Source of the DNA: Candidatus Woesearchaeota archaeon
GTDB taxonomy: Archaea; Nanobdellota; Nanobdellia; Woesearchaeales; ARS49
Reading direction: 5' to 3'
DNA length: 44,975 bases
Assembly: GCA_016203395.1 (NCBI GenBank)
Contig: JACQMV010000008.1
Location: 1-44,975 of the forward strand
Positions 701-41,285 of the stretch are shown piece by piece (the stretch's first letter is position 1; each line of letters begins with the position of its first letter). The notes below the pieces were generated by a model. The model did no database searches. It was not told the origin of the DNA and saw only the letters and a list, made by a program, of their open reading frames with translations. A program made the translations under genes and the position numbers.

Positions 701-1062
701 GTTTTATCCCGCAGCCCTTGCTAAAAATACGCTAAACAAATGACATATTTGCCCTACAGTCCTTGTGCTCTGACTGTGAACTTTAATGTGCTCAACTGTT
801 TATTTGTCTTGAGCAATACCATTTGTTGCAGCCGGTTGCAAGCACAGTGCAAGCACATGGTAAGGGCTTGGTGTGACAACAAAACAAGACACTTCCAAAT
901 CATGAGTCAAGCCACAAGGGCTGCGGAAACGTAGTATCATCTTACACTCTTATTTTTTTGAGAGTGCTGTAGGAAAATAACAACACTTTCTCTGAGAAGT
1001 ATCAGCAGTGTGGGGGTAACGAAACATTTGTAGCGCATTATTAGTTTTTGTTTGTTGGCAGA
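701..1062 (-). repeat. Family A modular repeat, copy A1 (core 757-923)
   Basis: Reverse complement aligns with 40960-41257. Core ends CAGTCCTTGTGCTCTGACT / AGTCAAGCCACAAGGGCTG are imperfect inverted repeats; central near-palindrome TTGCAGCCGGTTGCAA at 826-841. Confidence 0.9.
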
Positions 1063-1103
1063 TTCTGACTCTAATTTATATACCTGTGAGCATTATTGAG
1101 TGC

Positions 1104-1691
1104 ATGAAGCTTTCAGAGCTTGTTGAGCAGATTAAAAGGTTGCCTCCTGAAAAGAGAGTTGAAGCATTAAAACAATTACGTATTTTCCTGAAAAAGAGAG
1201 AAGAACAAACAAAGCAGGGTGAAGAAGCTGCTATAGACCTTCTTGAGGAAGCTGAACTCGAGCAAGCTGCTATTGAGAAGATAACTGTTCCTCAGCAGAA
1301 AAAGGTTGATTTAGAGGAGTTATTCAAAGAAAAAAAGGATTCTGAACAGATAGAGAGAAAGATTAATATTGAACGTGAAGAGGAAGTGAAAAGGTTTGCT
1401 GAGCGAACTACTCAGGAGAATTTTTTGCGCGCGCAGGAATTACGTCGTGAACAAACTCCCAGTTATGAGCAAAAGCGCGAGCTTTATGATATTGCTGCTG
1501 GTGAAGAACTTAAAAGAATTCGCGGCTACGAGGATAATGAGCAATCACGCAAGCAGCTTGAAAAGATGGAAGAAGGAAATATGCGAAAATATGCCAGAAC
1601 TATTGCTGAAGAGGTTCTTGAGCATGACCATAAGTATGCGAGATCTCAGTCAGAGGAAATCACAGGACAAAATAAAGCGTATAGAGGATAA
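1104..1691 (+). CDS. Hypothetical E/K/R-rich coiled-coil protein
   Basis: Long ORF with the T-ending codon style of other + strand genes; ATG at 1104 preferred over GTG at 1086. Confidence 0.75.
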   Translation: MKLSELVEQIKRLPPEKRVEALKQLRIFLKKREEQTKQGEEAAIDLLEEAELEQAAIEKITVPQQKKVDLEELFKEKKDSEQIERKINIEREEEVKRFAERTTQENFLRAQELRREQTPSYEQKRELYDIAAGEELKRIRGYEDNEQSRKQLEKMEEGNMRKYARTIAEEVLEHDHKYARSQSEEITGQNKAYRG

Positions 1692-1761
1692 TGTTAAACA
1701 CTTCAGGTAGAAACAACACATAAAACACATACTCCTTATTTATATATGTAGGGATATTATT

Positions 1762-3810
1762 ATGATTATGACCTACGAACCTCGTAGTGCAATGGATCGC
1801 GGCTATATTCCTGTTGCAGATATTTCTCCAAAGGACGCTCTTGAAAAGCCGATTCTTTCTTTTAATCAGATAGGACAAACTGTTGTTGAAACAGATCAGA
1901 TGACAGGCAGGAATATTTTGCAGAATGTTCAGGCAGCTATCAGGGGTGGTGCTGGCACTATTCAGCTGGTTATGATGACTTCAAGAAAGCAGCCGCTTGG
2001 TGGTGGTGCTAAAGCAATTGGTAAAGATCTTCAGCAGGCATTGCGTGAAGTTGCTCTTGCTAACCAAGTTAATATTACTGGTTTGGAATTGCCTACTGGT
2101 GCTACTAATAATCTTTCTGGTTGGGATCCTCAGGGTAGGAGGATTGACAAGCAGGCACAGAATGAGAGTATTAAAGAGGTTCATGATGCTATTCAGTTTG
2201 CTGCTTCTTTAGGAGGGGGTGAAGTTGATCTTGTCAGTTTTGAATTTCCTCGTGCATTGTATGAACAGGACTGGAATAAAAAGAGTTTTGGGAAGAAAGT
2301 TGTTGAGGTTGGTGGCGAAAGGAAGGTTAAGGAACGGAAAATGTTTGAAATTCCTGATGAGGATGTTCATGAAGAATTGCGTTTTGTTGATGCAGAAACA
2401 GGTAGTGTGAGTGCATTGTCAAGGCGACGTCTTCCTAATCCTTTTTTTGATGAAAAGCTAAGAAAGCTTTCTGAGGAAGGCAAATCTTATGAGTCATTGT
2501 CTGGCGAGGAAAAACTTATTTTTGATAGGGAAAGATACATTTCTTGGGATGATTATTTGAAAAGGTTTACTAATAGCAATGAATTCAGGGAAAAGTTTCC
2601 TGAGGGTATGGACAAAGCAGACCAGATTAAGGTCAGGGCTGTTGCCTTTGAAAAGATTGGTCAGGAGATTTTTAAGAGAGAAATTTCTAGTGCTAATGCT
2701 CAGATTGCTCGTACGCAGGATTTTATGGAGAATGACGAAACAAGAAGGACTCAGACAAAAGCAGAGATAGAAATGCTTGAAAATAAGAATCGCGCTGTTG
2801 AACTTTTCAGGCAGCAGGAAGGCATGCTTCGTCAGGCAGGTATGTCTGAGCGGGAGATTGAGTTTCGCAGGCGACAGGCAGAACGTGTTCAGAACATGCC
2901 TGAAACAGAAGCAAGAGAAGCGCTTGCTGATGCTAAGCAAAAAGATGCAGTGTTTGCAGAAAGGATTGGTTCTTATGCTAATGAGATTGAGGAGCAAAGA
3001 AGGGCTAAGGCAGAGTATGAGCGCAGGAAGAAAAATTTAAAGTATTTTGAGGATTTTGCGCGTGAGCAATCAGTTGATGGTTACAAGCAAGCAGGTATTA
3101 TTGCTTGGCAAGAATCTAAAATTCATGCTAAGGACTTGAAAAAGCCGTTGGAGATTGGTCCTGAAATTGGCTGGCCTCAGTATTATGGAGGTCATCCTCA
3201 GGAATTTATTGATTTGATTGATAAGGCAAGGCATAAAATGTCTGCAGAGCTCCAGAAAAGTCATGGTTTGTCTGAGAATGATGCTGAAGAAGCTGCGAAA
3301 AAGCATATTAAGGGGATTTTTGATACAGGTCATTTGGGTATGTGGCTGGAGTATTTCAGACCTGAACTTCCGTGGGATGAGCGTGTTAAGGAATTCAAAA
3401 AATGGTATATGGAGCAGGTGAAAAAGATTTCTGATGGTGACTATGTTTCTGGGATTCAGGCAGTTGATTCTGCTACAGGAGCGCATGCTCACCTTCCTCC
3501 CGGTCAGGGCATTCTTCCTGTTGTTGAAGCAGTTAAGGAGTTTAAAAAAAATGGTTTTGATGGTTTTGTTGTGAGTGAGGGTCATGAAGAAGAAAAGCTT
3601 GGCCAAGGACGTATCTTGTGGAAGGCGTGGCAGGCGTTTGATCCTAAGTTGAAAACTGCTTCCTATCTTCCTTCTGTGGCTTGGAGCTCAGTGCATAATT
3701 CTTACATGGGCAGATTATACAGTCCGAGATACATGGTTAGTTCTACTGCGCCTATTTTTGGAGAATACCGTCCTTGGGCAGGTGGAGACAACCCGATTCC
3801 GTTTGAGTAA
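1762..3810 (+). CDS. Xylose isomerase/AP endonuclease 2-like TIM-barrel protein with a large coiled-coil insertion
   Basis: C-terminal motifs FDTGH, HAHLPPGQG, VSEGHE; N-terminal SIKEVHDAIQFAASLGG; charged helical central region. Confidence 0.7.
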   Translation: MIMTYEPRSAMDRGYIPVADISPKDALEKPILSFNQIGQTVVETDQMTGRNILQNVQAAIRGGAGTIQLVMMTSRKQPLGGGAKAIGKDLQQALREVALANQVNITGLELPTGATNNLSGWDPQGRRIDKQAQNESIKEVHDAIQFAASLGGGEVDLVSFEFPRALYEQDWNKKSFGKKVVEVGGERKVKERKMFEIPDEDVHEELRFVDAETGSVSALSRRRLPNPFFDEKLRKLSEEGKSYESLSGEEKLIFDRERYISWDDYLKRFTNSNEFREKFPEGMDKADQIKVRAVAFEKIGQEIFKREISSANAQIARTQDFMENDETRRTQTKAEIEMLENKNRAVELFRQQEGMLRQAGMSEREIEFRRRQAERVQNMPETEAREALADAKQKDAVFAERIGSYANEIEEQRRAKAEYERRKKNLKYFEDFAREQSVDGYKQAGIIAWQESKIHAKDLKKPLEIGPEIGWPQYYGGHPQEFIDLIDKARHKMSAELQKSHGLSENDAEEAAKKHIKGIFDTGHLGMWLEYFRPELPWDERVKEFKKWYMEQVKKISDGDYVSGIQAVDSATGAHAHLPPGQGILPVVEAVKEFKKNGFDGFVVSEGHEEEKLGQGRILWKAWQAFDPKLKTASYLPSVAWSSVHNSYMGRLYSPRYMVSSTAPIFGEYRPWAGGDNPIPFE

Positions 3811-3857
3811 GAAATGCGTTGAATATTTGCGTATTTGACTGTTCTTTAGAGCATGAA

Positions 3858-3900
3858 CTGCTGGAAAAGAATTATGAAACAGTTGCTTATTATTAGCAGT
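3858..3900 (-). repeat. Isolated single module of family A
   Basis: Reverse complement ACTGCTAATAATAAGCAACTGTTTCATAATTCTTTTCCAGCAG matches 40925-40968; lies between convergent genes. Confidence 0.75.
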
Positions 3901-3919
3901 TTTGGGGAGAAATGAATAG

Positions 3920-4330
3920 TTATTCTGCAACTTTTATTTCATTCACATTAAAGAATCGTTTTATTACTGCTTCATTATGTCGTAGTGTGCTTGCGCTTTT
4001 TCCTATCAGCATTCCTCTTGTTTTGTAGTCTGGTGCTTTGAGGATTACTTTTCCGTTTTCTTCAGAAATTTCTGATATCGGGTATGGGGCAAAAACATTT
4101 TTTATGAATTGTTTGATGTCTGCATTCCATTGCACTATTTTTATTCGTTTTTTCATTATTCTTTCAATTCTTTTTGCGTTTTCGCCTTTCGCTCCTATTG
4201 CTTGTTCTATTCCGTTGTGTACTATTATTGTCAGCCATTCTTCTTGTTGTATGCAGTCTTTTATTTCTGCTCTGGTCTGTTTTTCTAAAAGGCGGATTAA
4301 TCGTAGGTCGTCTTCATTTAAAATTCTCAT
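3920..4330 (-). CDS. nusA: Archaeal NusA (two KH domains)
   Basis: AIGAKGENAK and LIGKSAS KH loops; canonical position after rpl30e. Confidence 0.9.
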   Translation of the reverse strand: MRILNEDDLRLIRLLEKQTRAEIKDCIQQEEWLTIIVHNGIEQAIGAKGENAKRIERIMKKRIKIVQWNADIKQFIKNVFAPYPISEISEENGKVILKAPDYKTRGMLIGKSASTLRHNEAVIKRFFNVNEIKVAE

Positions 4331-4578
4331 ATTATTCCTATTACGTTGATGTTGAAGGGTTTTTTGCAGATTTCTGCAAGTATTTGGCTGTTTTCTTCAA
4401 GTTCTGTTACTGGTACGTTTAAGAGTTTTGTGTAGTGGAATATTTTTTTCTTTGTTGTTTCGTTTATGTTTTTGCTTATGAGCACTTCTTTTACCTGTTC
4501 TTTGGCAATTGCTTTAAGCACTCTTTGTTCTCCAATGATGGCTTTCTTCTGTTCTATCAGTTTTTTTATGTCAATCAT
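4327..4578 (-). CDS. rpl30e: Ribosomal protein L30e (short form)
   Basis: IIGEQRVLKAI...LAEICKKPFNI resembles the L7Ae/L30e family; lies between rpoA2 and nusA. Confidence 0.8.
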   Translation of the reverse strand: MIDIKKLIEQKKAIIGEQRVLKAIAKEQVKEVLISKNINETTKKKIFHYTKLLNVPVTELEENSQILAEICKKPFNINVIGII

Positions 4579-8310: not shown

Positions 8311-8311
8311 T

Positions 8312-11809: not shown

Positions 11810-11823
11810 TTTGTGTGTAAATG

Positions 11824-12109: not shown

Positions 12110-12200
12110 TGTCAAGATGCTGCAGGCAGATGTATGGCTCTTGCTAATTAACAAGAGTGACTTGCGTTAAGCTCACAGTCAGAGCACTAAATCCACAGGG
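12110..12200 (+). repeat. Degenerate family A fragment (A2)
   Basis: TTGCGTTAAGCTCACAGTCAGAGCAC matches TTGCGTTAGAGCTAACAGTCAGAGCGC of copies A4/A6; boundaries approximate. Confidence 0.6.
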
Positions 12201-12230: not shown

Positions 12231-12324
12231 CTATAGCGGAAGAAGTTAATAATCATATAAAAATAATAAATTCTTCCTCATATAGCAAACGAAACATATG
12301 CGAAAATTTACTTCGTTTGCTATA
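12231..12324 (+). repeat. Family B two-hairpin repeat, copy B1 (similarity to B4 extends to ~12362)
   Basis: CTATAGCGGAAGAAGTTA...TAAATTCTTCC-TCA-TATAGCAAACGAAA...TTCGTTTGCTATA; similar copies at 24571, 35562 and 39742. Confidence 0.92.
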
Positions 12325-12952: not shown

Positions 12953-13171
12953 TTACACTCCCGCCATTTTTTTGACTTCCTCATGAGTTACGAATTTTCC
13001 AGCTCTTATCCTCTTTCTTGCTTCTTCTATTTCGGTTTTTGTTTTTTCATTTAACTCTAAGTCATCTTCTATCATTCTTTCAATTATGTCATTATATGTT
13101 TCTCTTTCCATCATCTTCATTCTATCTAAAACCGATTTAGTATTGTCTGAAATCTGTATTGTCGTAGGCAT
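12953..13171 (-). CDS. RHH-type antitoxin
   Basis: TTIQIS...ETYNDIIERMI and GKFVTHEEVKK tail; upstream of a RelE-like toxin. Confidence 0.8.
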   Translation of the reverse strand: MPTTIQISDNTKSVLDRMKMMERETYNDIIERMIEDDLELNEKTKTEIEEARKRIRAGKFVTHEEVKKMAGV

Positions 13172-13471: not shown

Positions 13472-13735
13472 ATGATACAAGCAATGATAGAGATTCCAAA
13501 CGAGGCAAACCAGATTTTAAACATAATCAAAGCCAGATATAACCTAAAAACCAAAAGCGAAGCTATTGCAAAAATAGTTATGGAATGCGGCGCCAACATC
13601 ATAGAACCGGAGTTGAGACCGGAGTATTTACAAAAGCTAAGAAAAATTGAAGAAGAAGGATATGGCGAAACTCTTAATTCTATCGAACAATTAAGGAAAA
13701 AGATAGAAAAGAGACAAAATGCCAGGAAAATATAA
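13472..13735 (+). CDS. DUF2683-like antitoxin
   Basis: MIQAMIEI...ILNIIKARYNLKTKSEAI...EPELRPEY; overlaps the toxin start; BRE/TATA GAAAGGTTTATATA at ~13415. Confidence 0.8.
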   Translation: MIQAMIEIPNEANQILNIIKARYNLKTKSEAIAKIVMECGANIIEPELRPEYLQKLRKIEEEGYGETLNSIEQLRKKIEKRQNARKI

Positions 13736-13994
13736 GACAAGCAAGGAATTTGACAGGATTCTTACCAAACTTCAAAAGAAAGACAAGCAGCTTTATGAAA
13801 ATCTTTTAAGCAAAATGACTGAAGTCCTGAACAATTCTGATATTGAGCATTACAAAAATTTAAGATACGATATGAAAGACTTCAAGAGGGTTCATATAGG
13901 GCATTTTGTTCTCGTCTTTAGATTCGACAAAATAAACGACACAATTTTCTTTTCGGATTTCGGTCATCACGACAACATTTACGGGAAATGCTGA
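13719..13994 (+). CDS. RelE/YafQ-like toxin
   Basis: HYKNLRYDM...RVHIGHFVLVF...DFGHHDNIY. Confidence 0.85.
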   Translation: MPGKYKTSKEFDRILTKLQKKDKQLYENLLSKMTEVLNNSDIEHYKNLRYDMKDFKRVHIGHFVLVFRFDKINDTIFFSDFGHHDNIYGKC

Positions 13995-14265
13995 GAAAAT
14001 CCTGTTTCACTGTTTCCGCAACTGTTCTCTAAGGGCTTGATATAATCGTCCAAATTGTTCAAATACTTTTCAATACTCTCTATTCTCTCCAATTTTTTGG
14101 CAGAAGGGTTCTTATCCTGTTTCGCATCCTCAAGCTTCTTGCGCAACTCACTAACATAACCCTGCATCTTGGATAACTGCTTTTGCACTTGAGAAATATC
14201 ACAAATCCATTTTTTTGCAGCTCCTGCTTATAATTATTAAAAGGAGAGTTATTATTTTCCCTCAT
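13979..14265 (-). pseudogene. Small coiled-coil gene, possibly frameshifted at an A7 run
   Basis: ORFs 14080-14265 and 13979-14188 join into one frame (…KQELQKKWICDISQVQKQLSK…) if one A is added to the run at 14210-14216. Confidence 0.35.
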
Positions 14266-14550
14266 CTAAAAAAGAGTAAGAGTGCAAGATGAGAATATCT
14301 TTCCACGCCATTGTGGCTTGATGAGTAGGTTGAAGGTATTTTGTTTTGTTGTCACACCAAGTCCTTACAATGCGCTCGCAACATGCTGCAACAAATTGTA
14401 TTGCTCAAGACAAATAAACAGTTGAGCACATTAAAGTTCACAATCAGAGCACAAGAACTGCTGATAAGTTATAACCTCATTTAAGGTAAGAATTAGCAAT
14501 GACTGCAAGACAAATGCAGAATCAGTTAAGGTATGCTCTGGCAGGAGCAA
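14266..14550 (+). repeat. Family A copy A3 (core ~14304-14460)
   Basis: GCCATTGTGGCTTGATGAGTA...TCAGAGCACAAGAACTG, followed by modules also found in A6/A7. Confidence 0.9.
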
Positions 14551-17049: not shown

Positions 17050-17430
17050 AGACTGCACATTTCTTTCCGTGCTCTGCTAAAAATACTCTGATTATGTGAG
17101 TTAATATTTGCCTTGTAACAACTGCTAATACTGATTAAGGGGAATGTTGTTATTTTTCCACAGCCGCTAATAATAATCTTAGGGTATGGGGCTTATGCAA
17201 ATATTTTTTCGCAGCTCTGGTGGCTTGACTAGTGATTTGAATGCTTCTTGTCTTGTCGTTATACTTAGCCCTTACCTTTTGCTTGCACTGTGTTTGCAAT
17301 CATTTGCAACAGATTGCAACAAATGGTATTGCTCATGACAAATAATACACCGCATTGCGTTAGAGCTAACAGTCAGAGCGCATGACCTGTTGATAAATTG
17401 TGACCTCATTTAAGATACGAATTAGAAGGT
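17050..17430 (+). repeat. Family A copy A4 (core 17212-17389)
   Basis: Several CTGCTAA...TATTT modules precede a core running CAGCTCTGGTGGCTTGACT...AGTCAGAGCGCATGACCTG. Confidence 0.88.
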
Positions 17431-17526
17431 CTGTTTTAGTAATAGCCAGTATTTCTTAATGTAGCAGTTTCATTCTATATGTTGTTTTTAATAAAAGCTT
17501 ATAGCCAAAAAGGCAGTAGGGATTGC

Positions 17527-19542: not shown

Positions 19543-19602
19543 TTCTTACTCAGTCGTGGCATAAGCGATACTTTTATAAACATGTATGCTTGCATCGTGG
19601 CT

Positions 19603-21003
19603 ATGAGGATTACTGCTGCTGTTTTGATTATTTTGTGCGCTTCTTTGGTATTGGCAGGAGAGCAGGCATTTACTTTTGATGCTTCGCCAAGTGAAGTAAA
19701 AATCAGGTTTAATGAAACTGCTGTTTTTAAAACAACCATAACGCACATTAGCAAGGATACAGAAACATTTGAGTTGTTTTCTAATGATGTTTTGTGGGAT
19801 TTGCGAACTTCTGAAGCATTGGTAATCCCTCCAAAGGGTGTTTCTGTTGATGTTTTTCTCAAGCCATTGTTTGCAAAGCCGGGAGTGTATGGCGTTACTT
19901 TGATTCTTAAGAGATCCAAAACAGGTGAAATGAAGCGGCATACTTTGAATGTTGAAGTGTCTTCTGATGTTGCTCAGCAGTATCTTCCTGCTGTGAGAGG
20001 CACGGCATATATTGACAAGTATGTGCGTCCTGACAGGGCAGTTGAGATTACTGTTGATTTAGAAAGCCAGAATAGTGCAGTTATTCCTAAGCTGGTTATT
20101 AAAGCAAGAAGTGCGACAATAAATGCAGACTATGAAACTTCTTTGTTGGCTTTTGAAAAAAAGACAGTCAGGTTTACTGTGCAATTGGACGGTAAAACCT
20201 TGCCTCAGGATGATATTCTTCGCACAACAATTATTGCTTTTGATGAAGAAGGTAAGAGTTATAATTTTGAATCTCCTGCTATAGATTTTCAGATTGTTGA
20301 GTATGGTGATGTGGTTAAGGATTATTCTAATGTCAAACGTTTTCTGAAAAGTCAGCTGAATTTTGTTATTACGAATGATGGCAATGTTCCGAAAGTTTTT
20401 AGGCATGATGAATTCATTGGCTATCCTGCGCTTTGGTTTACTACAAGTTCTCCTTTAGGTATTAAGGAACGTGGTCGTATTTATTGGGATATTGCTTTGA
20501 ATGTTGGTGAATCAAGAGAGTTTATTGTCGTGACTAATTATTGGGGCGGCTTTCTCGTTTTGTTGATTGCCGTTTTGATTATTATCTCTTATTACATCTT
20601 CAGAAGTCCTGTTGTTCTTAAGAAAACATCCAGAATTGTGAGCACAAGGGAAGGAGGTATCAGTGAGCTAAAAATTCTTATTTGTGCTCATAACAGAAGC
20701 AGGCGTGCTGTAAAAAACATTCGTATTATTGATCTTGTTCCGAGAATTGCAGAGTATCTGAAGCAGGTTGATCCGGGGAGTATTGAGCCGTTTTCTATTG
20801 TTACTCATGAACAGAAAGGTTCAATAATCAAGTGGCGTGTTCATTGTCTTGAACCGGGTGAAGAACGTATTATTGTGTACAGAATTAGGGCGAAATTCGC
20901 AATTATTGGAGGAGTTCGTCTTCCTATTGCTTCTTCAAGATTTGAATCCTCTATAGGGAATGAACGCACTATCAACAGCAATTCTCCAGTTATCTCATTA
21001 TGA
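19603..21003 (+). CDS. Membrane-anchored surface protein with Ig-like domains
   Basis: Signal peptide MRITAAVLIILCASLVLA, beta-rich domains (ITNDGNV), internal transmembrane helix, C-terminal DUF11-like domain. Confidence 0.7.
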   Translation: MRITAAVLIILCASLVLAGEQAFTFDASPSEVKIRFNETAVFKTTITHISKDTETFELFSNDVLWDLRTSEALVIPPKGVSVDVFLKPLFAKPGVYGVTLILKRSKTGEMKRHTLNVEVSSDVAQQYLPAVRGTAYIDKYVRPDRAVEITVDLESQNSAVIPKLVIKARSATINADYETSLLAFEKKTVRFTVQLDGKTLPQDDILRTTIIAFDEEGKSYNFESPAIDFQIVEYGDVVKDYSNVKRFLKSQLNFVITNDGNVPKVFRHDEFIGYPALWFTTSSPLGIKERGRIYWDIALNVGESREFIVVTNYWGGFLVLLIAVLIIISYYIFRSPVVLKKTSRIVSTREGGISELKILICAHNRSRRAVKNIRIIDLVPRIAEYLKQVDPGSIEPFSIVTHEQKGSIIKWRVHCLEPGEERIIVYRIRAKFAIIGGVRLPIASSRFESSIGNERTINSNSPVISL

Positions 21004-21016: not shown

Positions 21017-21126
21017 GCAATAACAACATCCTCTTTAATCAGTATTAGCAGTTGTTGCAAGCACAGGGTAAGGGGCATGTCAAACGACAAGACAGGGTGC
21101 TCAACTTTTGATTATTAGTGACTGTG
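21017..21126 (-). repeat. Partial family A copy A5
   Basis: Reverse complement contains TGTCTTGTCGTT...CCCTTACC...TGCTTGCAACAACTGCTAATACTGATTAAAGAGGATGTTGTTATT (compare 17118-17155). Confidence 0.8.
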
Positions 21127-22502: not shown

Positions 22503-22970
22503 CTGCTAACGACAATGAAGGAACACTCATAGGGCATGTAGCGTATGCAAATATTTCCCCGCAGCTGCTAATATCTATCAAAGACTGTGTTGTTATTTTC
22601 CGCAGCCCTTGTGGCTTGACTCATGATTCGGTTTCTTGTTTTGTTGTCATACTCAGCCCTTACCATGTGCTTTTAACTGCTAATATCTATCAAAGAATGT
22701 GTTGTTATTTCCTAGCAGCCATTGTGGCTTGATGAGTAGTTTGAAGGTATTTTGTTTTGTTGTCACACCAAGCCCTTACCTTTTGTTTGCGTTGTGTTTG
22801 CAACCGGCTGCAACAAAGGGCATTGCTCATGACAAGCAATACACCGAATTGCGTTAGAGCTAACAGTCAGAGCGCATGACCTGTTGATAAATTGTGATCT
22901 GATTTAAGATAAGAATTAGCAAGGGCTGTGGAAAAAATGCAAAATCAGTGAGGGTATGCTCTGGCAGGGG
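22503..22970 (+). repeat. Family A copy A6 with an internal tandem duplication (core 22716-22883)
   Basis: CTGCTAATATCTATCAAAGA...GCAGCC.TTGTGGCTTGA...GCCCTTACC occurs at 22565 and 22677. Confidence 0.92.
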
Positions 22971-24570: not shown

Positions 24571-24664
24571 TATGGCAAACGAAATAAATTTTCGCATATG
24601 TTTCGTTTGCTATATGAGGAAGAATTTACTATTTTTATACGATTATTAAATTCTTCCGCGATAG
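24571..24664 (-). repeat. Family B copy B2
   Basis: Reverse complement of B1/B4; ends ~26 nt from the 3' end of tRNA-Val. Confidence 0.92.
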
Positions 24665-24690: not shown

Positions 24691-24763
24691 TGGGCCCGGC
24701 CAGGTTCGAACTGGCGACCTCATCCACGTCAAGGATGCGTCATGACCACTAGACCACGGGCCC
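24691..24763 (-). tRNA. tRNA-Val(GAC)
   Basis: Acceptor stem GGGCCCG/CGGGCCC; anticodon arm CATCC-TTGACGT-GGATG; T arm GCCAG-TTCGAAC-CTGGC; no intron. Confidence 0.95.
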
Positions 24764-25840: not shown

Positions 25841-26968
25841 ATGCAAACACACAGTTGGGAACGGATGGACAGATGCTGTCTTGTTGGGCGACAGGAGCAT
25901 CATGTTATAGAAAGTGCTATCAGAAATACGCAGTATGGTGATATTGTTTTTGAGGAATTGCGTCCTTTTCTTGAAAAGGAGCATTGTTCTATTAGTGCAG
26001 TTGTTAATGGATGCCTTCAGGCATTATCTTTCTTTACTTATGACATAGAAAGAAACAGTAGGGTGAAACCAACCAGTGAGCTTATTGCTTTTGCTGCAAC
26101 AAGGCAGTCAGCATTTGATCTTGTGGGCTATTGGAAAACACATTTCAGCCCGGTTAATGGCTGCCAGAGATTATGCAATATTCGCGTGGCTCTGGATGAC
26201 ATCTGTGGCAGTAGGTTTATTGCAGAGGCGTTGAACGCTCATGGCTTCAGGGTTGAGGCAGTTCTTCCTGATTATTTTAAGATTGGAGAACATTCTTTTT
26301 CTGTTGCAGAATATGCCTTTAATACTTCTGAACGGGATGCAGTGTTTCCTGAAAGAGATGCTTTGCTTCCAAAGATCATGAATGATGTTTTTCTGAACTC
26401 TGATGTTGTGGCTTACCCGAATGCATGGCTTAATAGCATGTGCAAAAAGCTATCTGGGGCTTTTGAGCTTAGAAGAGCAGTGTTGAATGATTCAGCCATG
26501 ATTGTTGAGTTGTTATCTCATGTTTTTCCCATTTATGGAACATGTAATCTTGCTGAAGCAATCCCTGTGATGCTGAGCAACAATAGCTCTGTTGCGCCTA
26601 TTGTTTATGTTAGTGCAGATAGAACATCAGGAAGAGTTGTTGGAACTTGTACTGTTGAGAAGTATCCTTTTGCGACAGCAGAACTTACTGATGTTGCGGT
26701 TCATCCTGACTTTAATGGTAATGGATTGGGAACTGCTTTGTGTTATCTTGCTTTGTGTGAAGCCAGATGTCATGGTGTTTTGCATTATTATTGTGATGAC
26801 GTTCCTGATTCACCTATGAATAAAGTAGCAAAGCGTTTAGGTGCTTCTCTTTGCGGGATTCATCGTTGCCATGTGAGAATCAGCACTCGCAATCTTCGTG
26901 ATGCTCTTGGCAGGGACGATGCCTATGTTGATTTAGTAGTGTGTTCTGGCTCAACGGAGTTTGTATGA
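25841..26968 (+). CDS. GNAT acetyltransferase, resembling beta-lysine N-acetyltransferase (AblB/YodP-like)
   Basis: AELTDVAVHPDFNGNGLG, MNKVAKRLG, N-terminal EAVLPDYF; start codon uncertain (25808 or 25841). Confidence 0.65.
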   Translation: MQTHSWERMDRCCLVGRQEHHVIESAIRNTQYGDIVFEELRPFLEKEHCSISAVVNGCLQALSFFTYDIERNSRVKPTSELIAFAATRQSAFDLVGYWKTHFSPVNGCQRLCNIRVALDDICGSRFIAEALNAHGFRVEAVLPDYFKIGEHSFSVAEYAFNTSERDAVFPERDALLPKIMNDVFLNSDVVAYPNAWLNSMCKKLSGAFELRRAVLNDSAMIVELLSHVFPIYGTCNLAEAIPVMLSNNSSVAPIVYVSADRTSGRVVGTCTVEKYPFATAELTDVAVHPDFNGNGLGTALCYLALCEARCHGVLHYYCDDVPDSPMNKVAKRLGASLCGIHRCHVRISTRNLRDALGRDDAYVDLVVCSGSTEFV

Positions 26969-27627
26969 ATACCGTTGTCACAGGTGCTGGTTCATTGTTC
27001 GGGTTTGCATTACATCCTTTTTTTGTTTTTGATTTCAGTGCTTCAAATGAGGATACTAAAAACATGAATCTTAGTGATGCTAATGTTTTTGATAGTCATG
27101 TAAAATCTATGATTAAAAAGAATAATGCCGTTGTTGGTATTGGCAAGTATGCTGAAGACAGGGTTATTTATCAAAGAAGTGCATTATTCGGAAATGAAAG
27201 AACAATTCATTTAGGTGTTGATATCATTCTTCCTGCTGGAACAGCAGTGCATTCGCCTTTTGATGGCGTTGTTCACAGTTTTGATGATAATAAGGGTTTT
27301 GGCGACTATGGCCCAACAATCATTCTTCAGCACGAGATTGATGGTTTTGTTTTTTTCACTCTTTATGGACACCTTAGCAGGGAGTCACTCATCAGTATTG
27401 CAGAAGGGCAAAGAATTGTTAAAAGTCAGATAATAGGAGAGATTGGCTCTAAAGAGATTAATGGACAGTGGTTTGAGCATCTTCATTTTCAGATAATTCT
27501 TGACATGCTCAACAAAAAAGGAGATTTTCCAGGAGTTTGCTGCAAAGATGAAAAGGATAAATGGTTGCGCCTCTGTCCTGATCCGACACAAATACTTAAA
27601 ATCCCACAGCTTTATAAAACACTTTAA
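26965..27627 (+). CDS. Peptidase M23 family protein
   Basis: Zinc motifs HLGVD and HLHFQ, LYGHL; no signal peptide; ATGA overlap with the GNAT gene. Confidence 0.85.
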   Translation: MNTVVTGAGSLFGFALHPFFVFDFSASNEDTKNMNLSDANVFDSHVKSMIKKNNAVVGIGKYAEDRVIYQRSALFGNERTIHLGVDIILPAGTAVHSPFDGVVHSFDDNKGFGDYGPTIILQHEIDGFVFFTLYGHLSRESLISIAEGQRIVKSQIIGEIGSKEINGQWFEHLHFQIILDMLNKKGDFPGVCCKDEKDKWLRLCPDPTQILKIPQLYKTL

Positions 27628-29159: not shown

Positions 29160-29975
29160 TCAAGCCATAACGGGCTCGGCAGTATGCTGTGAGTCCATCA
29201 TTTCTGCAAGAGTGAATCTTTTTGTGTTTAAACGCCAGACTTTAAGCGCATATCCCAAGCTTTTTTTCGGTTCTGGATGGATGACAAAATATTTAGCGTT
29301 TTCGTTCCATAAGCACACTCTGTTTCTGCCTGCTGTTTTGGCTAATTGCATGTTGTAATCTGCTCTCTGCGCTGCTGACTCGTATGGTTCTGCACGTTCT
29401 TTTTCCCATTTCGTTAGCCCTATAGAGATTGTTATCTCTTCGTGTGGGCTCGTTTTTATGCTTTCAGTGGCTATGAGTAATCTACACCTGTTCGCTGCAG
29501 ATAGTGCAGAATAATCGTGTTCTGTTGCAAGTATCAGCTCCATTTCTTCTCCGTGCAGATGGTATGCTTTTCTAAATTTCTTGTCGCCTACTTCTTTAAG
29601 CCGGTCTGTTTCTCTTATAGATTTTGCTAACGTGCTTACTGTAAGCCGAAGAACATTATCGCCAACCTTTTCTCCGTATATTTTGTTGAATCTGCCGAAA
29701 TAATCTATGTCTATTTTAGCAACGTAAACGCTGTTTTCTCCATTTAGCCGTCTGTTGCCTATTTTTGACAAAGATAGTCTGTTAACATCATCATCTCTCA
29801 CAGTTGAGTTATTGTGTCCACTTACAGGGTTTGTTGTTGCCAGTGTTTGTAAGTGCTCCACAACTTCTATCACTCCTTGAAGTCCTGTAGCTTTAGGATT
29901 GTGAGCCCATAATTGCTTCAGGTATTCAACAGCGTTGCGGTATTTTCCCGAGTCATAGAGCTTACTCTTTGCCAT
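29160..29975 (-). CDS. GGDEF-domain protein with variant signature HGEEM
   Basis: DIDYFGRFNKIYGEKVGDNVL, LHGEEM, ITISIGL, ADYNMQLAKTAGRNRV. Confidence 0.85.
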   Translation of the reverse strand: MAKSKLYDSGKYRNAVEYLKQLWAHNPKATGLQGVIEVVEHLQTLATTNPVSGHNNSTVRDDDVNRLSLSKIGNRRLNGENSVYVAKIDIDYFGRFNKIYGEKVGDNVLRLTVSTLAKSIRETDRLKEVGDKKFRKAYHLHGEEMELILATEHDYSALSAANRCRLLIATESIKTSPHEEITISIGLTKWEKERAEPYESAAQRADYNMQLAKTAGRNRVCLWNENAKYFVIHPEPKKSLGYALKVWRLNTKRFTLAEMMDSQHTAEPVMA

Positions 29976-30085
29976 TAGTATAATAAGTACTGGTTTAATT
30001 ATAAAGATGTGCAAAACTGGCGAGTTTTCTTTATTTGAATCATTCTAATGGCTTATTACTTACCAAAACAGATAAAAAAAGAAAG

Positions 30086-35545: not shown

Positions 35546-35561
35546 GATTGCTTTTCAGAAT

Positions 35562-35655
35562 TATAGCAAACAAAGTAAATTTTCGCATATGTTTCGTTCG
35601 GTATATGAGGAAGAATTTACTATTTTTATATGATTATTAATGTCAGCCGCTATAG
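35562..35655 (-). repeat. Family B copy B3
   Basis: TATAGCAAACAAAG...CCGCTATAG; begins 16 nt after the sufC stop. Confidence 0.9.
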
Positions 35656-35818
35656 CATGAAAGAAATACTCTCTTTATAATCAATTTAGAGCGACTAAAA
35701 AACTACTTCGTTAAGATGCTGTGAAGAACTAAACAAGAGATACCTGTTCATCTCTTTCGAGCAGGACATCCAGAACATCTGGCATACTGTCAAAAGTTGC
35801 ACGGTTCTGTGCTTTCCA

Positions 35819-36064: not shown

Positions 36065-36146
36065 TGCTATTATAGTAGGCAATAAAACGAGTTTCTTTGT
36101 CGTAATCCTATAATCGGAGATTCACAACACACGTGCGCTAACTGCA

Positions 36147-36890: not shown

Positions 36891-36974
36891 AAATCAGAGA
36901 CGCCAAGACAGTATATAAAACTTACTATTAATTAGAAGTAAGAAGATTAATATTGTGCTCTAAATTAATTAACA

Positions 36975-37880: not shown

Positions 37881-37926
37881 CAATGCACCTAAGATAGGGT
37901 TGTGAGCCATTCTTTGCAAAACTCAC

Positions 37927-38667
37927 TTAATACTCATCAAGCTTTGACTGGGATTTAGAGTATTCTGCAAGATATTTTGGAGGAATAACACTCACGAATG
38001 AATATCCCCAATCCTCAAGCATCTTTTTTGCATTATCAGTAATCCTCGGGGCTGCAAGAATCCCCCGTACATTTTTTAGACCTTTAGCATCCATAATCCT
38101 TTCAACATACCTTCTTAACTGCGTGACTGCAGCAAGATCAGCACAATATCGCTTGCATTCAACAACTGTCAAAATATCCTCTTTGTCAGTGCCAAGCACG
38201 TCAATAAATCCGTAAGCAGTCTGTTCTTCCTGAGAAACTGGCTTAAAACCATCTTCAATAATTTCCGGAGCCTTATAAATCATGTTAGCCATGTCTGCTT
38301 CGTTGCCCTGCAAAACAATTTTCTGGGAATCATTCAACTTATGACTGTTGAAAAAGTAAACCTTCTTCATTATAATTGTGAGAAATTCCTTCTGAACAAG
38401 ATTTTCGCACTTCAAGAACAAAAAACCATCCTCTACAAAAGAAGAATGAATTGTTCCCGATTTCATATAATTCACAGGAGCATTGCCCTGCGGCTGATGA
38501 ACAAGCAGACTATAATCTTCTTTTAGTATAATAAGTCGGTCTCCATCCCCAAGATAGCTTTCAGCCCTTCCAGAATACTTTATCTCGCACTTTGCAGCAA
38601 GAACCACGATCTCTCTTCTTGCGACAGCGTCTTTAAGCAATGAACAAACTTCTTCTTTTTTCCACAT
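37927..38667 (-). CDS. nucS: Endonuclease NucS/EndoMS
   Basis: YSGRAES.L..GDR, PVNY, IDVLG...VVECK, QLRRY; ATG at 38667 lies just after the deaminase stop. Confidence 0.9.
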   Translation of the reverse strand: MWKKEEVCSLLKDAVARREIVVLAAKCEIKYSGRAESYLGDGDRLIILKEDYSLLVHQPQGNAPVNYMKSGTIHSSFVEDGFLFLKCENLVQKEFLTIIMKKVYFFNSHKLNDSQKIVLQGNEADMANMIYKAPEIIEDGFKPVSQEEQTAYGFIDVLGTDKEDILTVVECKRYCADLAAVTQLRRYVERIMDAKGLKNVRGILAAPRITDNAKKMLEDWGYSFVSVIPPKYLAEYSKSQSKLDEY

Positions 38668-38668
38668 T

Positions 38669-39661
38669 TTACAATTCCTTAATTTTCCTAAGCACAACTC
38701 CTGCTTCTGAAAAAAGAGCAATGGAGGTATCATCCATTGCATACTCTTCAGTATAAACCACTTCCTTTATTCCTGCCTGAATTATCATTTTAGTGCACCA
38801 CAAACACGGCAAAAAACTCGTGTAAATAATGCTGGCTTCTGCCCTATCCCTACCTGCTTCTATTATTGCGTTTTCTTCTCCGTGAAGACACAAACATTCT
38901 CCTAGTTTAACACCTGCAGGAACATTACCACCACATCTTGCGCAGCCACCATCACTACAATTCCTAGTGCCTCTTGGTGTCCCATTATAGCCAGTTGCAA
39001 TTATCCTCCTGTTTTTTACTATTACAGCACCAACCTTTCTTGACATACAATTACTCCTTTGAGCAGCAAGTTTAGCGAGATTCATAAAATACGAGTCCCA
39101 CGAAGGCCTTATTTTTTCTTTATCAACAAGCAGGTCTACTTTTTTTTGCAACTCCTCAATCACTCCATCGTTAATTATCAACTCGTTAGCCATAGCCATA
39201 CATTCACGAATTCTCTGGTTTTCCCCCTTGCCAAATAACTCTTTTTGATCTCTCTCCAGAAAGGCATCCATTGTCTGAGGATCATTCTCCCTATTTCTTG
39301 ATTTTGCCCTCTCAAATCGCAATTGGACAGGTGCATCAACAGCAACGAGATAAAACAAAGGGCTTTTTCTCAAAACACTGACTTCTTCAGGATGACGTAT
39401 GCTATCAACAACATAATTAACCCTCCAGCATGATTTTATCTTTTCAATAATTATCTGCGAAATTGCCCCACAACCCTTTTCCCTGCGAAGATTGTTAGCA
39501 AAAACGATAAGATTGTCTCTGGTAACTTCTATGCCTTTCTCTCTAAGCATATTGCGCAGCTCATCACTATGCGAATAACTCTGAAAGCCGTATTTTTCCT
39601 TCAAATAATCAACAATCACCTGCTTTCCACAGCAGTAAGGACCTGTTAAGCCAATAATCAT
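38669..39661 (-). CDS. P-loop kinase fused to a deoxycytidylate deaminase
   Basis: N-terminal IGLTGPYCCGKQ, DSIRHPEE; C-terminal RPSWDSYFM, GYNG, HGEENA, PCLWC. Confidence 0.9.
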   Translation of the reverse strand: MIIGLTGPYCCGKQVIVDYLKEKYGFQSYSHSDELRNMLREKGIEVTRDNLIVFANNLRREKGCGAISQIIIEKIKSCWRVNYVVDSIRHPEEVSVLRKSPLFYLVAVDAPVQLRFERAKSRNRENDPQTMDAFLERDQKELFGKGENQRIRECMAMANELIINDGVIEELQKKVDLLVDKEKIRPSWDSYFMNLAKLAAQRSNCMSRKVGAVIVKNRRIIATGYNGTPRGTRNCSDGGCARCGGNVPAGVKLGECLCLHGEENAIIEAGRDRAEASIIYTSFLPCLWCTKMIIQAGIKEVVYTEEYAMDDTSIALFSEAGVVLRKIKEL

Positions 39662-39741
39662 GGGCTAAAACTAGTATCGGCATATAAAAACATAATTGTA
39701 CTATAATCAATATATACGAGTATGACTCATTTGAGAACAAA

Positions 39742-39836
39742 TTATAGCGGAAGAATTTAATAATCATATAAAAATAGTAAATTCTTCCTTATATAGCAAA
39801 CGAAACATATGCGAAAATTTACTTCATTTGCTATAG
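39742..39836 (+). repeat. Family B copy B4 (extension shared with B1 to ~39872)
   Basis: TTATAGCGGAAGAATTTA...TAAATTCTTCC...TATAGCAAACGAAA...TTTGCTATAG. Confidence 0.92.
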
Positions 39837-39961
39837 TTCGTATTAAGGAAGAGCAGTTTCTGAGCATGCTCAACAACCGCGTATATGATTCTTTAAATAG
39901 CGGTTTTTGACAAGACGCAACTATTTTTATCCTATTATTTGCGTCTTCCACTATATAGTTC

Positions 39962-40264
39962 CTATTTGTATTCTCTCCAAGTGTGCTTGCATTGTTCGCA
40001 TTTGAAGAATCTTGTTTCAGGTTCGTCTCCTGCTCTTGTTTGTTTTGTCCACCAGTATGCGTGTGGGTGGTGGCATTTTGAGCATTCTGCTTCTGTCAGA
40101 GGTAAGCTTTCTTGTTCTTTTATAGCTCCTTCTTTCTTTTCAACATCTGGCTTTAGTACAGTGTGTATTATTGCTTTGTCTTTGCTGGTGTATCCGCAGC
40201 TGCATGCCATTACCTTTTTGTCAAACTTTGGCAGCAGTATTGAACCGCATTTTGGGCAGAACAT
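39962..40264 (-). CDS. tfs: Transcription factor S
   Basis: Two zinc ribbons with the QTRAGDEP acidic hairpin. Confidence 0.93.
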   Translation of the reverse strand: MFCPKCGSILLPKFDKKVMACSCGYTSKDKAIIHTVLKPDVEKKEGAIKEQESLPLTEAECSKCHHPHAYWWTKQTRAGDEPETRFFKCEQCKHTWREYK

Positions 40265-40270
40265 TTTTTT

Positions 40271-40879
40271 TTAGCAGGTTTGTGCTTTGCACACCTCCGA
40301 ATTGGTGAATAAACATATCCCCTTTATTAATCCTACTTTTAGCCAGCCGGCAAAAGGCACTCTTAATAGTGCTTTTCCAACTACTTGTTCTTTTGATGCT
40401 CTGTCCATTAATGGGTCTGGAGCATTGTTTCCATCGCCTTTTGTTATGAATTCGTCGTTTTTGGCTATTACTCGGTGTATGATTGGCTGTGAGGTGTATT
40501 TTGAGAAGAATACGATAACGTCTCCTGTTTTTGCGTTTTTAGGGCTTCCAAGCACCATTAAATCGCCTTTCCAGAATCCTCTTTTGAATGGGAATCTCAG
40601 AAAGTCCTGTTTTGTGATGTTGTATGAACTGTAGAAGTCTTCTTGTGTTCCTTTTATTGATGGGGATTGCCACCATTTTTCAAAACCTGCTTCATGGTCC
40701 ATGCTGCAGGATACTACTGCAACTATAGGGTATTGTGTTCCGAGCACGAATCCGAGCACAGGATAAACAAGGTATTTTATTATAATGAATGCTACCAGCA
40801 AGTGAACTACTGTTCCGAAAAAACTGTCATCTTCAAATGCGAGTTTGTACAACCAGTGCTCTTTCACTTTTTTAAGCAT
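40271..40879 (-). CDS. Signal peptidase I (Sec11-like)
   Basis: VVSCSM, GDVIVF, IIHRV, TKGDGN. Confidence 0.88.
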   Translation of the reverse strand: MLKKVKEHWLYKLAFEDDSFFGTVVHLLVAFIIIKYLVYPVLGFVLGTQYPIVAVVSCSMDHEAGFEKWWQSPSIKGTQEDFYSSYNITKQDFLRFPFKRGFWKGDLMVLGSPKNAKTGDVIVFFSKYTSQPIIHRVIAKNDEFITKGDGNNAPDPLMDRASKEQVVGKALLRVPFAGWLKVGLIKGICLFTNSEVCKAQTC

Positions 40880-40920
40880 GAATCCCTTTGTTTTTGTTTG
40901 TTTTTAAGCTTTGCGCAGTC

Positions 40921-41285
40921 CCAATCTGCTAATAATAATCAACTGTCTTGTAATTCTTTTCCCACAGCCACTAATACTTACCAAAGAAGGCGTTGTTATT
41001 TTTCCACAGCCCTCCATAAAAAGGATAAGAATGTAAGATGATACTACAGTTCTGCAGCCCTTGTGGCTTGATGAGTAATTTGAAGGTATTTTGTTTTGTT
41101 GTCACACCAAGCCATTACCATGTGTTTGCAACAGGTTGCAACAAATTGTCTTGCTCAAGGCAAATAAACAGTTGATTACATTAAAGTTCCCAGTCAGAGC
41201 ACAAGGACTGTAGGGCAAATATGTCATTTGTTTAGCGCGTTTTTAGCAATGGCTGCTGATAAGTTATAACTTCATTTAAGACAAA
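40921..41285 (+). repeat. Family A copy A7 (core 41055-41210)
   Basis: CAGCCCTTGTGGCTTGA...TCAGAGCACAAGGACTG with three modules on the left and two on the right. Confidence 0.92.

What the first reader, a model, noticed from the sequence alone, without database searches (positions are those of the whole stretch)
701..41285. Family A: dense, modular intergenic repeat with an inverted-repeat-bounded core and shuffled cassettes
Seen: related sequence at about 8 loci (701, 3858, ~12110, 14266, 17050, 21017, 22503, 40921), filling many of the larger intergenic gaps. It occurs in both orientations and between divergent, convergent and tandem genes. Full copies have a ~155-180 bp core bounded by imperfect inverted repeats (CAGYCCTTGTGnnnTGA) with a central TTGCA-n-TGCAA near-palindrome. 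The core is flanked by a variable number and order of 40-60 nt modules joined at a recurring junction (roughly TATTTTCCnCAGC[CnT]TGCTAA), and these junctions mostly point in opposite directions on the two arms. No transposase, integrase or cas gene is in the window. Inference: a non-autonomous MITE/BOX-like element that grows by adding modules, an array of binding sites for a chromosome-organising protein, or a structured RNA family. I do not recognise it as a described element.
Basis: partly seen in the sequence, partly recalled or inferred. Interest (0 to 1): 0.85.

Follow-up and report, generated by a model that had tools for sequence, protein, structure and literature searches.

The report
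Mirror-symmetric mosaic intergenic repeat, small archaeon
A small-genome archaeon carries about 160 copies of a non-coding, mirror-symmetric repeat that fills its longer gaps between genes; it looks like selfish foldback DNA of a new family, not an RNA gene or an assembly error.

Summary
The repeat is real. All 8 window loci belong to one family. That family has 160 annotated loci, 78 with a full core, in the 0.88 Mb genome. This is 4.1% of the assembly, and 38 of 120 contig ends lie in it.

The core is a ~180-nt imperfect palindrome made of an L arm and an R arm. The flanking ~45-nt modules are not shuffled. They keep a polar order, c/d-a-b-L|R-A-B-F, and the two sides mirror each other (L~R, a~A, c~B). 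Only the copy number of modules varies.

Copies are diverged (nearest-neighbour identity 85%). They are mosaics of short blocks with no linkage beyond ~40 nt.

I found no Rfam match, no consensus RNA fold and no covariation between arms. I also found no target-site duplications, no IS with matching ends and no copies in 40 + 400 related genomes.

Best reading (0.55): a lineage-specific, non-autonomous foldback/MITE- or BOX-like selfish element. It was later reshaped by deletion or duplication at conserved GCWGC junctions and by short-tract gene conversion. How it moved is inferred, not shown.

The parts
703..1016 (-). Full composite copy, modules a b LR B (core 753-929)
   Evidence: Core model hit at 929-753, 165.8 bits. 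Module string. Bounds from self-BLAST coverage.
3858..3898 (-). Solitary d-type module between convergent genes
   Evidence: Inverted match to 40920-40967 (I11). Module hit.
12110..12191 (+). Solitary R arm (core model positions 92-172). A family B copy follows at 12231-12324 and is not part of family A.
14224..14545 (+). Full composite copy, a b LR A F (core 14300-14465)
   Evidence: Independent run assemblies carry its outer modules joined to the unique flanks (records 5, 6, 14, 23).
17074..17434 (+). Full composite copy, e a (c-like) LR A (core 17203-17393), lying between tandem genes
   Evidence: The orthologous gene pair in relative G006 is 34 nt apart, against 442 nt here.
21019..21094 (-). 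Fragment: an a module plus part of an L arm
   Evidence: I12, I20.
22522..22968 (+). Composite copy with a duplicated left arm, c a L (a-like) LR A F (solo L 22597-22672, core 22707-22888)
40927..41293 (+). Full composite copy, d a b LR B A (core 41051-41214)

Best explanation
Family A is a lineage-specific, non-coding, selfish interspersed repeat of a small-genome (DPANN-type) archaeon.

The ancestral unit was one long imperfect palindrome (a foldback) of roughly 430-550 nt. Its order was c/d - a - b - L | R - A - B - F. The right side is the diverged mirror image of the left, and b and F are arm-specific extras.

A cut- or copy-and-paste process seeded copies at 160 or more intergenic sites. 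The enzyme responsible is not found in the assembled 88.6% of the genome. This step is inferred.

Since then the copies have changed in place in two ways:
- Modules are lost or tandemly duplicated at the short conserved junctions (..CAGC|.. on the left, ..|GCTG.. on the right). The mechanism is inferred; the pattern is shown.
- Copies exchange short tracts by ectopic gene conversion, so each copy is now a mosaic of ~10-20-nt variant blocks. The pattern is shown; the mechanism is inferred.

The copies persist only where they do not disrupt genes or promoters. The family probably acts as DNA, not as a folded RNA.
For: Abundance and dispersal:
- 165 core places, 78 of them full length, and 160 annotated loci.
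- 36,022 nt, or 4.07% of the assembly, and 38 of 120 contig ends.

Non-coding and tolerated positions only:
- Mean overlap with called genes is 1.8%, and 3 of 160 loci are overlapped by more than 30%.
- 0 of 293 intergenic gaps of 100 nt or less hold it, against 81 of 137 gaps over 300 nt.
- It stays about 40 nt or more away from start codons (two called starts overlap a locus), leaving room for the TTTATAAA-type promoter seen about 30 nt upstream of tRNAs.

One ancestral foldback rather than cassettes:
- Mirror scores against shuffles: L vs rc(R) 59 vs 18.8, a vs rc(A) 32 vs 14.9, c vs rc(B) 27 vs 13.4, each reached by 0 of 500 shuffles.
- Polar order and no module on the wrong side in 78 of 78 loci.

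Defined polarity: the best strand beats the other by a mean of 41.6 bits in 78 of 78 full cores.

Mosaic evolution:
- 65 biallelic columns, with r2 0.32 at 1-5 nt and 0.02 beyond 40 nt.
- 2017 of 2080 column pairs show all four combinations.
- Module content is unrelated to a tree built from core-only columns.

Insertion, and restriction to this lineage:
- The gene pair flanking the 17074 copy is 34 nt apart in G006 and 442 nt apart here.
- No copy in 40 relatives. Among 400 genomes of the order there are only two marginal 24- and 37-nt hits.
- Of 35 loci from pattern scans of three public collections, only L015 matches the core model. L015 is a 99.9%-identical 786-nt fragment.

Not an assembly chimera: contigs assembled separately from four runs carry the outer modules joined to unique flanks with 0 differences.

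Not RNA.
Against: - No target-site duplication or sharp common terminus was seen at 72 internal composite copies. The ends are ragged and fade into degenerate modules.
- No IS with matching ends was found. Eight transposase or recombinase families gave nothing in the own genome.
- The two IS-like genes that were found have unrelated or only marginally similar inverted repeats.
- No presence/absence polymorphism was seen in four runs, but those were contigs of one population from one study.
- No near-identical copy pairs exist (maximum 91.8%), so recent movement is not shown. Short-read assembly would, however, collapse or break such pairs.
- Some 10-12-nt blocks are near-invariant although mean pairwise identity is 72%.
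- The left side faces gene starts 52 times against 24 stops (p 0.002), while the right side faces starts 35 times against 37 stops.

The last two points could instead mean a host function.
Confidence: 0.55

Rival explanations
1. Host-function DNA. The arrays are binding platforms for a DNA-binding protein, acting as nucleoid organisation, transcription-unit boundary or terminator/insulator elements. The conserved blocks (for example the TTGCAAC-type words spaced about 11 nt apart at the centre, and the module ends) would be the binding sites. Any selfish origin would be secondary.
For: - Near-invariant 10-12-nt blocks persist although mean pairwise identity is 72%.
- 81 of 137 intergenic gaps over 300 nt hold a copy.
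- Orientation is biased: the left side faces gene starts 52 vs 24. In tandem contexts the element lies opposite to the genes 26 times and the same way 10 times (p 0.011).
- T5+ runs are twice as frequent on the element's + strand (1.23 vs 0.67 per locus). Oligo-T is the archaeal termination signal (general knowledge).
Against: - Not found in any of the 40 relatives, nor convincingly in 400 genomes of the order. Any function would therefore be new to this lineage.
- Module number and composition vary freely between loci.
- Conserved ends are also expected for any element that must be recognised in order to be copied.
- The orientation bias can arise from selection against terminator-like T runs inside operons.
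- No candidate protein was identified.
Confidence: 0.2
2. Transposase-independent spread. The palindromic repeat multiplies and moves only through recombination and repair, for example hairpin-induced breaks repaired from ectopic copies, as proposed for palindromic repeats of some organelle genomes.
For: - No partner transposase, no target-site duplications and ragged ends.
- Pervasive mosaicism of short blocks.
- Module content is uncoupled from the core tree.
- Organelle precedent: PMC2670323, seen only as a search listing and the start of its abstract.
Against: - Gene conversion reshuffles existing copies, but it does not by itself explain how 160 new, unrelated intergenic sites were seeded.
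- The assembly is 88.6% complete, and multi-copy IS genes are often not assembled, so a partner may simply be missing.
Confidence: 0.15
3. A family of structured non-coding RNAs, either long hairpin transcripts or small RNAs made from the modules.
For: - Each core can fold into a long hairpin (consensus -64.6 kcal/mol).
- The + strand folds better in 61 of 78 copies, and G-U exceeds A-C by 715 to 347 at the predicted pairs.
- There is one weak sub-threshold match of an A module to a C/D-box family (RF01125, 17.4 bits against a gathering score of 50, E 0.16).
Against: - The consensus fold of 78 copies is -3.2 on + and 0.0 on -, and modules give none.
- Pairing is 4400 cells against 4378 +/- 10 in shuffles, with a shuffle maximum of 4408.
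- The L-arm and R-arm variant blocks that should pair are unlinked.
- No Rfam family reaches its threshold.
- The element lies in either orientation relative to its neighbours.
Confidence: 0.07
4. Assembly artefact. The module strings would be chimeras made by a short-read assembler.
For: - 38 of 120 contig ends lie in the repeat.
- Per-run contigs break inside the cores.
- One foreign MAG contig (L015) changes partner at a copy.
Against: - Outer modules are contiguous with unique flanking genes, with 0 differences, in contigs built separately from four runs.
- 160 loci follow one grammar.
- Copies differ from each other by about 15% or more, enough for unambiguous assembly of most of each copy.
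Confidence: 0.03

Closest known systems
   Same: An intergenic, non-coding mosaic of named modules with complementary outer modules. The number of the middle module varies. There are on the order of a hundred copies or more per genome and no transposase of its own.
   Different: BOX is bacterial and has three module types (A, B, C). Family A has at least ten module types arranged as two mirror-image arrays around a 180-nt palindromic core, and it lies in an archaeon. Sequence relatedness was not tested.
REP / BIME / REPIN elements with their RAYT (Y1) transposase (recalled)
   Same: Mosaic intergenic arrays in which two inverted units form the basic doublet. Density is high and the position is strictly extragenic.
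   Different: REP units are 20-40-nt hairpins with a conserved tetranucleotide and are tied to a Y1 (PF01797) gene. Here the units are 45-90 nt with no conserved hairpin or covariation. They lie in direct order within each arm. No PF01797 match was found in the genome.
Prokaryotic MITEs (for example Correia/NEMIS and ERIC, recalled; bulk census in PMC11602168, passages read)
   Same: Small, non-coding and intergenic, with inverted ends, many diverged copies and a taxon-specific distribution. The census reports 'a Woesearchaea genome' at 105 MITEs per Mb, among the densest archaea.
   Different: No target-site duplications and no related IS. The whole element, not only its tips, is a palindrome built of module arrays.
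Eukaryotic Foldback transposons such as Drosophila FB (recalled)
   Same: Long inverted arms made of subrepeats whose number differs between copies. Most copies have no coding capacity.
   Different: These belong to a different domain of life and are much larger. Their subrepeats are tandem copies of one unit, not an ordered series of different modules. No relationship is claimed; the likeness is architectural only.
Selfish palindromic repeats of Volvox organelle genomes (PMC2670323; only the search listing and the start of its abstract were seen)
   Same: Palindromic repeats that inflate the intergenic DNA of a small genome, with no known transposase.
   Different: Those are short, simple palindromes in organelles. 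Family A is a long modular element in a free chromosome.

Membership tests
MITE (non-autonomous class II element) | Small (50-800 bp) non-coding sequence in many dispersed copies | tested here: met
   160 loci. The median composite is 332 nt, range 134-559. Mean overlap with called genes is 1.8%.
MITE (non-autonomous class II element) | Terminal inverted repeats | tested here: met
   The core ends are inverted. The whole left side mirrors the right. The outermost tips are ragged, however.
MITE (non-autonomous class II element) | Target-site duplications flanking each copy | tested here: not met
   No shared direct repeat was seen when I read the ends of 72 internal composite copies. The boundaries are fuzzy, so short duplications could be hidden.
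MITE (non-autonomous class II element) | An autonomous IS with the same termini | tested here: not met
   Ten Pfam transposase/recombinase families were searched in the 88.6%-complete genome and eight gave no hit. The IS630-type element at C57:6712-7735 and the weak DDE ORF at C44 have other inverted repeats. Similarity of the IS630 right end to family A is marginal (13-25 of 300 shuffles reach it) and the left end shows none.
MITE (non-autonomous class II element) | Insertion polymorphism or empty sites | tested here: inconclusive
   One family-level empty site: 34 nt in G006 against 442 nt here. No contig skips a copy in four runs of one population.
REP/BIME/REPIN | Short hairpin units with a conserved tetranucleotide, kept by compensatory change | tested here: not met
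   There is no consensus hairpin in modules a, b, c, A, B, F or G on either strand, and no stacked covarying pairs.
REP/BIME/REPIN | A cognate RAYT (Y1 transposase, PF01797) gene | tested here: not met
   No match in the own genome, while the control genomes respond. The assembly is 88.6% complete.
BOX-type mosaic element | Ordered modules with complementary outer modules and a variable number of inner modules | tested here: met
   Polar order and variable copy number; mirror symmetry. This is a likeness of design. Sequence membership was not testable because no BOX sequence was at hand.
Structured RNA family (Rfam) | A match to a curated covariance model at its gathering score | tested here: not met
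   The whole window gives only a tRNA at 24691-24763. For the element alone the best match is RF01125 at 17.4 bits against a gathering score of 50.
Structured RNA family (Rfam) | A conserved secondary structure supported by covariation | tested here: not met
   Consensus fold -3.2 / 0.0. Pairing equals the shuffles. The arm blocks are unlinked.
CRISPR array | Identical direct repeats separated by unique spacers, with cas genes | tested here: not met
   The stretches between junctions are themselves repeated at dozens of loci: a 115 hits, A 88, B 62. The arrays are mirrored. No cas family was found among 45 window ORFs.

The most novel reading that the evidence does not exclude
A long modular palindrome has colonised, and keeps remodelling, the intergenic DNA of a genome-reduced archaeon without any transposase. 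It would do so purely through hairpin- or break-induced recombination and short-tract gene conversion between copies. The roughly 160 copies would then behave as a freely recombining population inside one chromosome. The host may also have co-opted the copies as oriented punctuation between transcription units.
Probability: 0.15. Interest if true: 0.7.

Novelty: new variant of a known kind. Interest (0 to 1): 0.5.

Why it matters
DPANN-type archaea are seen as streamlined genomes with little room for selfish DNA. Here one repeat family takes at least 4% of the assembly and breaks it at 38 of 120 contig ends. This matters for binning and for closing such genomes.

The family offers a clean natural case of a foldback element with ordered module arrays. 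About 80 full copies are in linkage equilibrium, which makes ectopic gene conversion in an uncultured archaeon measurable from sequence alone.

If a host function or a transposase-free way of spreading were shown, it would be the first such mosaic element described in detail in archaea, as far as my three literature searches reach.

Tried and rejected
RNA family. Rfam at gathering scores over the window gave only a tRNA. A permissive scan of one copy gave one sub-threshold C/D-box hit, which I treat as chance. RNAalifold on 78 cores and on seven module alignments gave no structure.

Module content against core phylogeny. A first tree appeared to link neighbouring modules to the core tree. That alignment still held 14 + 12 nt of the neighbouring modules. 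With core-only columns the link vanished, so I dropped the claim. One search had failed on a naming slip.

Promoter hypothesis. tRNA upstream regions show a TTTATAAA-type box about 30 nt upstream. By eye, the module consensus sequences lack it. The B-module end (ATTTTTAGCA) is only a near-match. No PWM scan was made.

IS630 link. The right end of the single IS630-type element aligns with the R-arm/B-module junction, but 13-25 of 300 shuffles score as well and the left end does not align. I keep it as a weak lead only.

Expression. No RNA holder was listed for the window.

Empty sites in reads. The contigs of four DNA runs (one study) break inside cores and none skips a copy. The joints listed are cross-mappings between copies.

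Public collections.
- Of 8 genome contigs, 26 metagenome contigs and 1 viral contigs pattern hits, only L015 is a true copy.
- The genome that holds L015 (G041) has that single copy at a contig start. I take this as a probable chimera.
- Plasmid and phage collections gave no match.

Literature. Three searches found no description of this family. Supplementary Table S2 of PMC11602168 may name the Woesearchaeal genome and its MITEs, but I did not see it.

Full report
**The organism.** The window is contig C50 of a 884,032-nt assembly in 60 contigs, rated 88.6% complete. It encodes archaeal RNA polymerase subunits H, B'', B', A' and A''. It also encodes NusA, L7Ae/L30e, a SUF system, TFS and NucS. 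Genomes of the same family are 0.7-1.8 Mb, so this is a small-genome, DPANN-type archaeon. The only near-identical public fragment lies in a MAG titled Candidatus Woesearchaeota archaeon (L015).

**The observation in the window.** Repeat finding, alignment and profile searches confirm related sequence at all eight loci named.
- Five loci carry a full core: 753-929(-), 14300-14465, 17203-17393, 22707-22888 and 41051-41214.
- 22597-22672 is an extra left arm.
- 12110-12191 is a lone right arm.
- 3858-3898 and 21019-21094 are solitary modules or fragments.
- None of the 45 window ORFs scanned matches a transposase, integrase or cas family.

**Census in the genome.**
- BLAST of the eight loci against the genome gives 1034 matches at 173 places. 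This includes a second family carried along by the 12110 query.
- An iterated nhmmer profile of the core (181 positions) finds 165 non-overlapping places. Of these, 78 are full length and 87 are partial, and many partials are exact halves (positions 1-87 or 91-180).
- With profiles for ten module types I annotated 160 loci totalling 36,022 nt, or 4.07% of the assembly.
- 38 of 120 contig ends lie within 60 nt of a locus.
- Self-BLAST puts 4.8% of the assembly in repeats with three or more copies.
- The most frequent 12-mers of the genome all belong to this family.

**Anatomy.**
- The core hits its own profile on both strands, so it is an imperfect palindrome. One strand always wins, by a mean of 41.6 bits and a minimum of 15.4, in 78 of 78 full cores. 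L and R are therefore distinct arms and the element has a polarity.
- The flanks are built of ~45-nt modules. On the left, modules end in ..TTTYCCNCAGC. On the right, they begin with CTG.. and end in ..TTAGCARGG.
- GCWGC is 2.7-fold enriched inside the family: 5.8 per kb against 2.15 per kb outside.
- Module order is polar, not shuffled: a->b 25 against 1, c->a 6 against 2, A->B 21 against 5, A->F 9 against 0.
- In 78 of 78 core-bearing loci no left-type module lies on the right or the reverse. Only 2 of 491 tokens are flipped.
- The two sides are mirror images, module by module. L vs reverse-complemented R scores 59 (shuffle mean 18.8). a vs rc(A) scores 32 (14.9). c vs rc(B) scores 27 (13.4). 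Each value was reached by 0 of 500 shuffles. Modules b and F have no counterpart.
- The simplest source is one long foldback, c/d-a-b-L|R-A-B-F. Copies derive from it by loss and tandem duplication of modules or half-cores, for example 'L a LR', 'LR R' and 'A A A A'.
- The median composite is 332 nt and the maximum is 559 nt.

**Not a folded RNA.**
- No Rfam family reaches its threshold. The best permissive hit is 17.4 bits against a gathering score of 50.
- The consensus sequence folds into a long hairpin on either strand (-64.6 and -63.7 kcal/mol).
- Across 78 copies the predicted pairs are no better kept than in column shuffles: 4400 paired cells against 4378 +/- 10, with a shuffle maximum of 4408.
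- RNAalifold gives -3.2 on one strand and 0.0 on the other, and nothing for seven module alignments.
- A modest strand asymmetry remains: G-U 715 against A-C 347, and the + strand is more stable in 61 of 78 copies.

**Copies are mosaics.**
- Mean pairwise identity of full cores is 72%. Nearest-neighbour identity has a median of 85% and a maximum of 91.8%.
- Much of the variation is two-state. Among 65 biallelic columns, linkage is strong within blocks of ~10-20 nt (r2 0.32 at 1-5 nt) and absent beyond 40 nt (r2 0.02).
- 2017 of 2080 column pairs show all four combinations.
- The L-arm block and the R-arm block that face each other in the hairpin are unlinked.
- Module content is unrelated to a tree built from core-only columns. 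An apparent link was caused by module bases left in the alignment.
- I read this as frequent short-tract exchange between copies. That mechanism is inferred.

**Context.**
- Loci are intergenic. Mean overlap with my ORF-based gene calls is 1.8%, and 3 of 160 loci are overlapped by more than 30%.
- They occur in every context: 58 tandem, 31 divergent and 25 convergent of 114 loci. Among all 819 gene pairs the split is 536, 137 and 146.
- They avoid short gaps. They are in 0 of 293 gaps of 100 nt or less, 11 of 92 gaps of 101-200 nt, 21 of 62 of 201-300 nt, 34 of 63 of 301-500 nt and 47 of 74 longer gaps.
- The left side faces gene starts 52 times and stops 24 times (binomial p 0.002). The right side faces starts 35 times and stops 37 times.
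- In tandem contexts the element is opposite to the genes 26 times and the same way 10 times.
- Copies keep about 40 nt or more from start codons (two called starts overlap a locus). This fits an intact native promoter, because tRNA genes show a TTTATAAA-type box about 30 nt upstream.
- T5+ runs are 1.23 per locus on the + strand against 0.67 on the - strand. Selection against terminator-like runs inside operons could therefore explain the bias. This explanation is inferred.

**Mobility.**
- At 72 internal composite copies the ends are ragged and fade into degenerate modules. I saw no common target-site duplication.
- In the own genome, PF07282, PF01797, PF00665, PF00589, PF00239, PF12762, PF00872 and PF01548 give no match, while the control genomes respond.
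- A weak DDE_Tnp_1 ORF (C44, 20.9 bits against a cut-off of 23) has unrelated 20-nt inverted repeats.
- A single IS630-type element (C57:6712-7735, DDE_3 91.5 bits, 26-nt inverted repeats, TA on both sides) resembles family A only marginally.
- Four DNA runs of one study hold the window. Their separately built contigs carry the outer modules joined to unique flanks with no differences, which argues against chimeras. They break inside cores and none skips a copy.
- Family relatives are distant (43% protein identity or less). In G006 the orthologues of the genes flanking the 17074 copy are 34 nt apart, against 442 nt here. In G017 another gene lies between them.
- The element was not found in 40 relatives. 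Among 400 genomes of the order there are only two marginal hits of 24 and 37 nt, and only two candidates per genome were scored.
- Plasmid and phage collections give nothing.

**Literature.** Three full-text searches found no description of this family. A MITE-Tracker census of 8220 archaeal genomes states that 'a Woesearchaea genome' has 105 MITEs per Mb, among the highest in archaea (PMC11602168; passages read; supplement not seen). That genome may or may not be this one.

**Reading.**
- Shown: abundance, intergenic position, polarity, mirror symmetry, fixed module order with variable number, mosaicism, absence of RNA-type covariation and restriction to this lineage among the genomes searched.
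- Inferred: that the family spread by transposition-like insertion catalysed in trans; that junction homology drives module loss and gain; that gene conversion makes the mosaics.

I put 0.55 on a selfish foldback/MITE- or BOX-like element. I put 0.20 on a primary host DNA function, 0.15 on transposase-free spread, 0.07 on an RNA family and 0.03 on an artefact. It is a new sequence family and an unusual architecture for a prokaryote, but it belongs to a known general kind.

Noticed in passing
window 12231-12324(+), 24571-24664(-), 35561-35655(-), 39742-39836(+), 39912-39955 (partial); 37 loci genome-wide: There is a second interspersed repeat, family B. It is ~96 nt long, has termini CTATAGCGG...GCTATAG and contains two internal hairpins. 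Two copies (C28:3539-3636 and C55:2388-2484) have different stem sequences in both hairpins yet keep full complementarity, so they form a compensated subfamily. This suggests a structural constraint. The C55 copy sits inside a family A element, which is evidence that family B inserts.
   Followed up: partly
G000 C57:6712-7735 (L048 1426-2449): A single IS630-type insertion sequence of 1024 nt. It has 26-nt inverted repeats and TA on both sides. The transposase is split into 171-aa and 168-aa ORFs (DDE_3, 91.5 bits).
   Followed up: partly
L015 19-804 = G000 C45:4737-5522: A contig of another MAG (G041, titled Candidatus Woesearchaeota archaeon) shares 786 nt at 99.87% with this genome. The shared stretch holds tRNA-His plus a family A copy. 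The rest of that contig is unrelated, and G041 has no other copy. This could be a chimeric join or an exchange at the repeat.
   Followed up: partly
window 29160-30014(-): An ORF with a GGDEF (diguanylate cyclase-type) domain lies in an archaeal genome (PF00990, 68.7 bits). As far as I recall, this domain is rare in archaea.
   Followed up: no
window 13472-13994(+) and 12953-13171(-): A ParE-like toxin ORF (13719-13994) lies next to a DUF2683 ORF (13472-13735). A VapB/DUF7557-like small ORF is nearby.
   Followed up: no
window 41331-44975(-): An ORF of more than 1205 aa runs off the window end and has no Pfam or NCBIfam match. ORFs 19582-21003 (473 aa) and 1086-1691 are likewise unmatched.
   Followed up: no
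window 26941-27627(+): A Peptidase_M23 ORF (63 bits), a bacterial-type cell-wall hydrolase domain, is present in this small archaeal genome.
   Followed up: no
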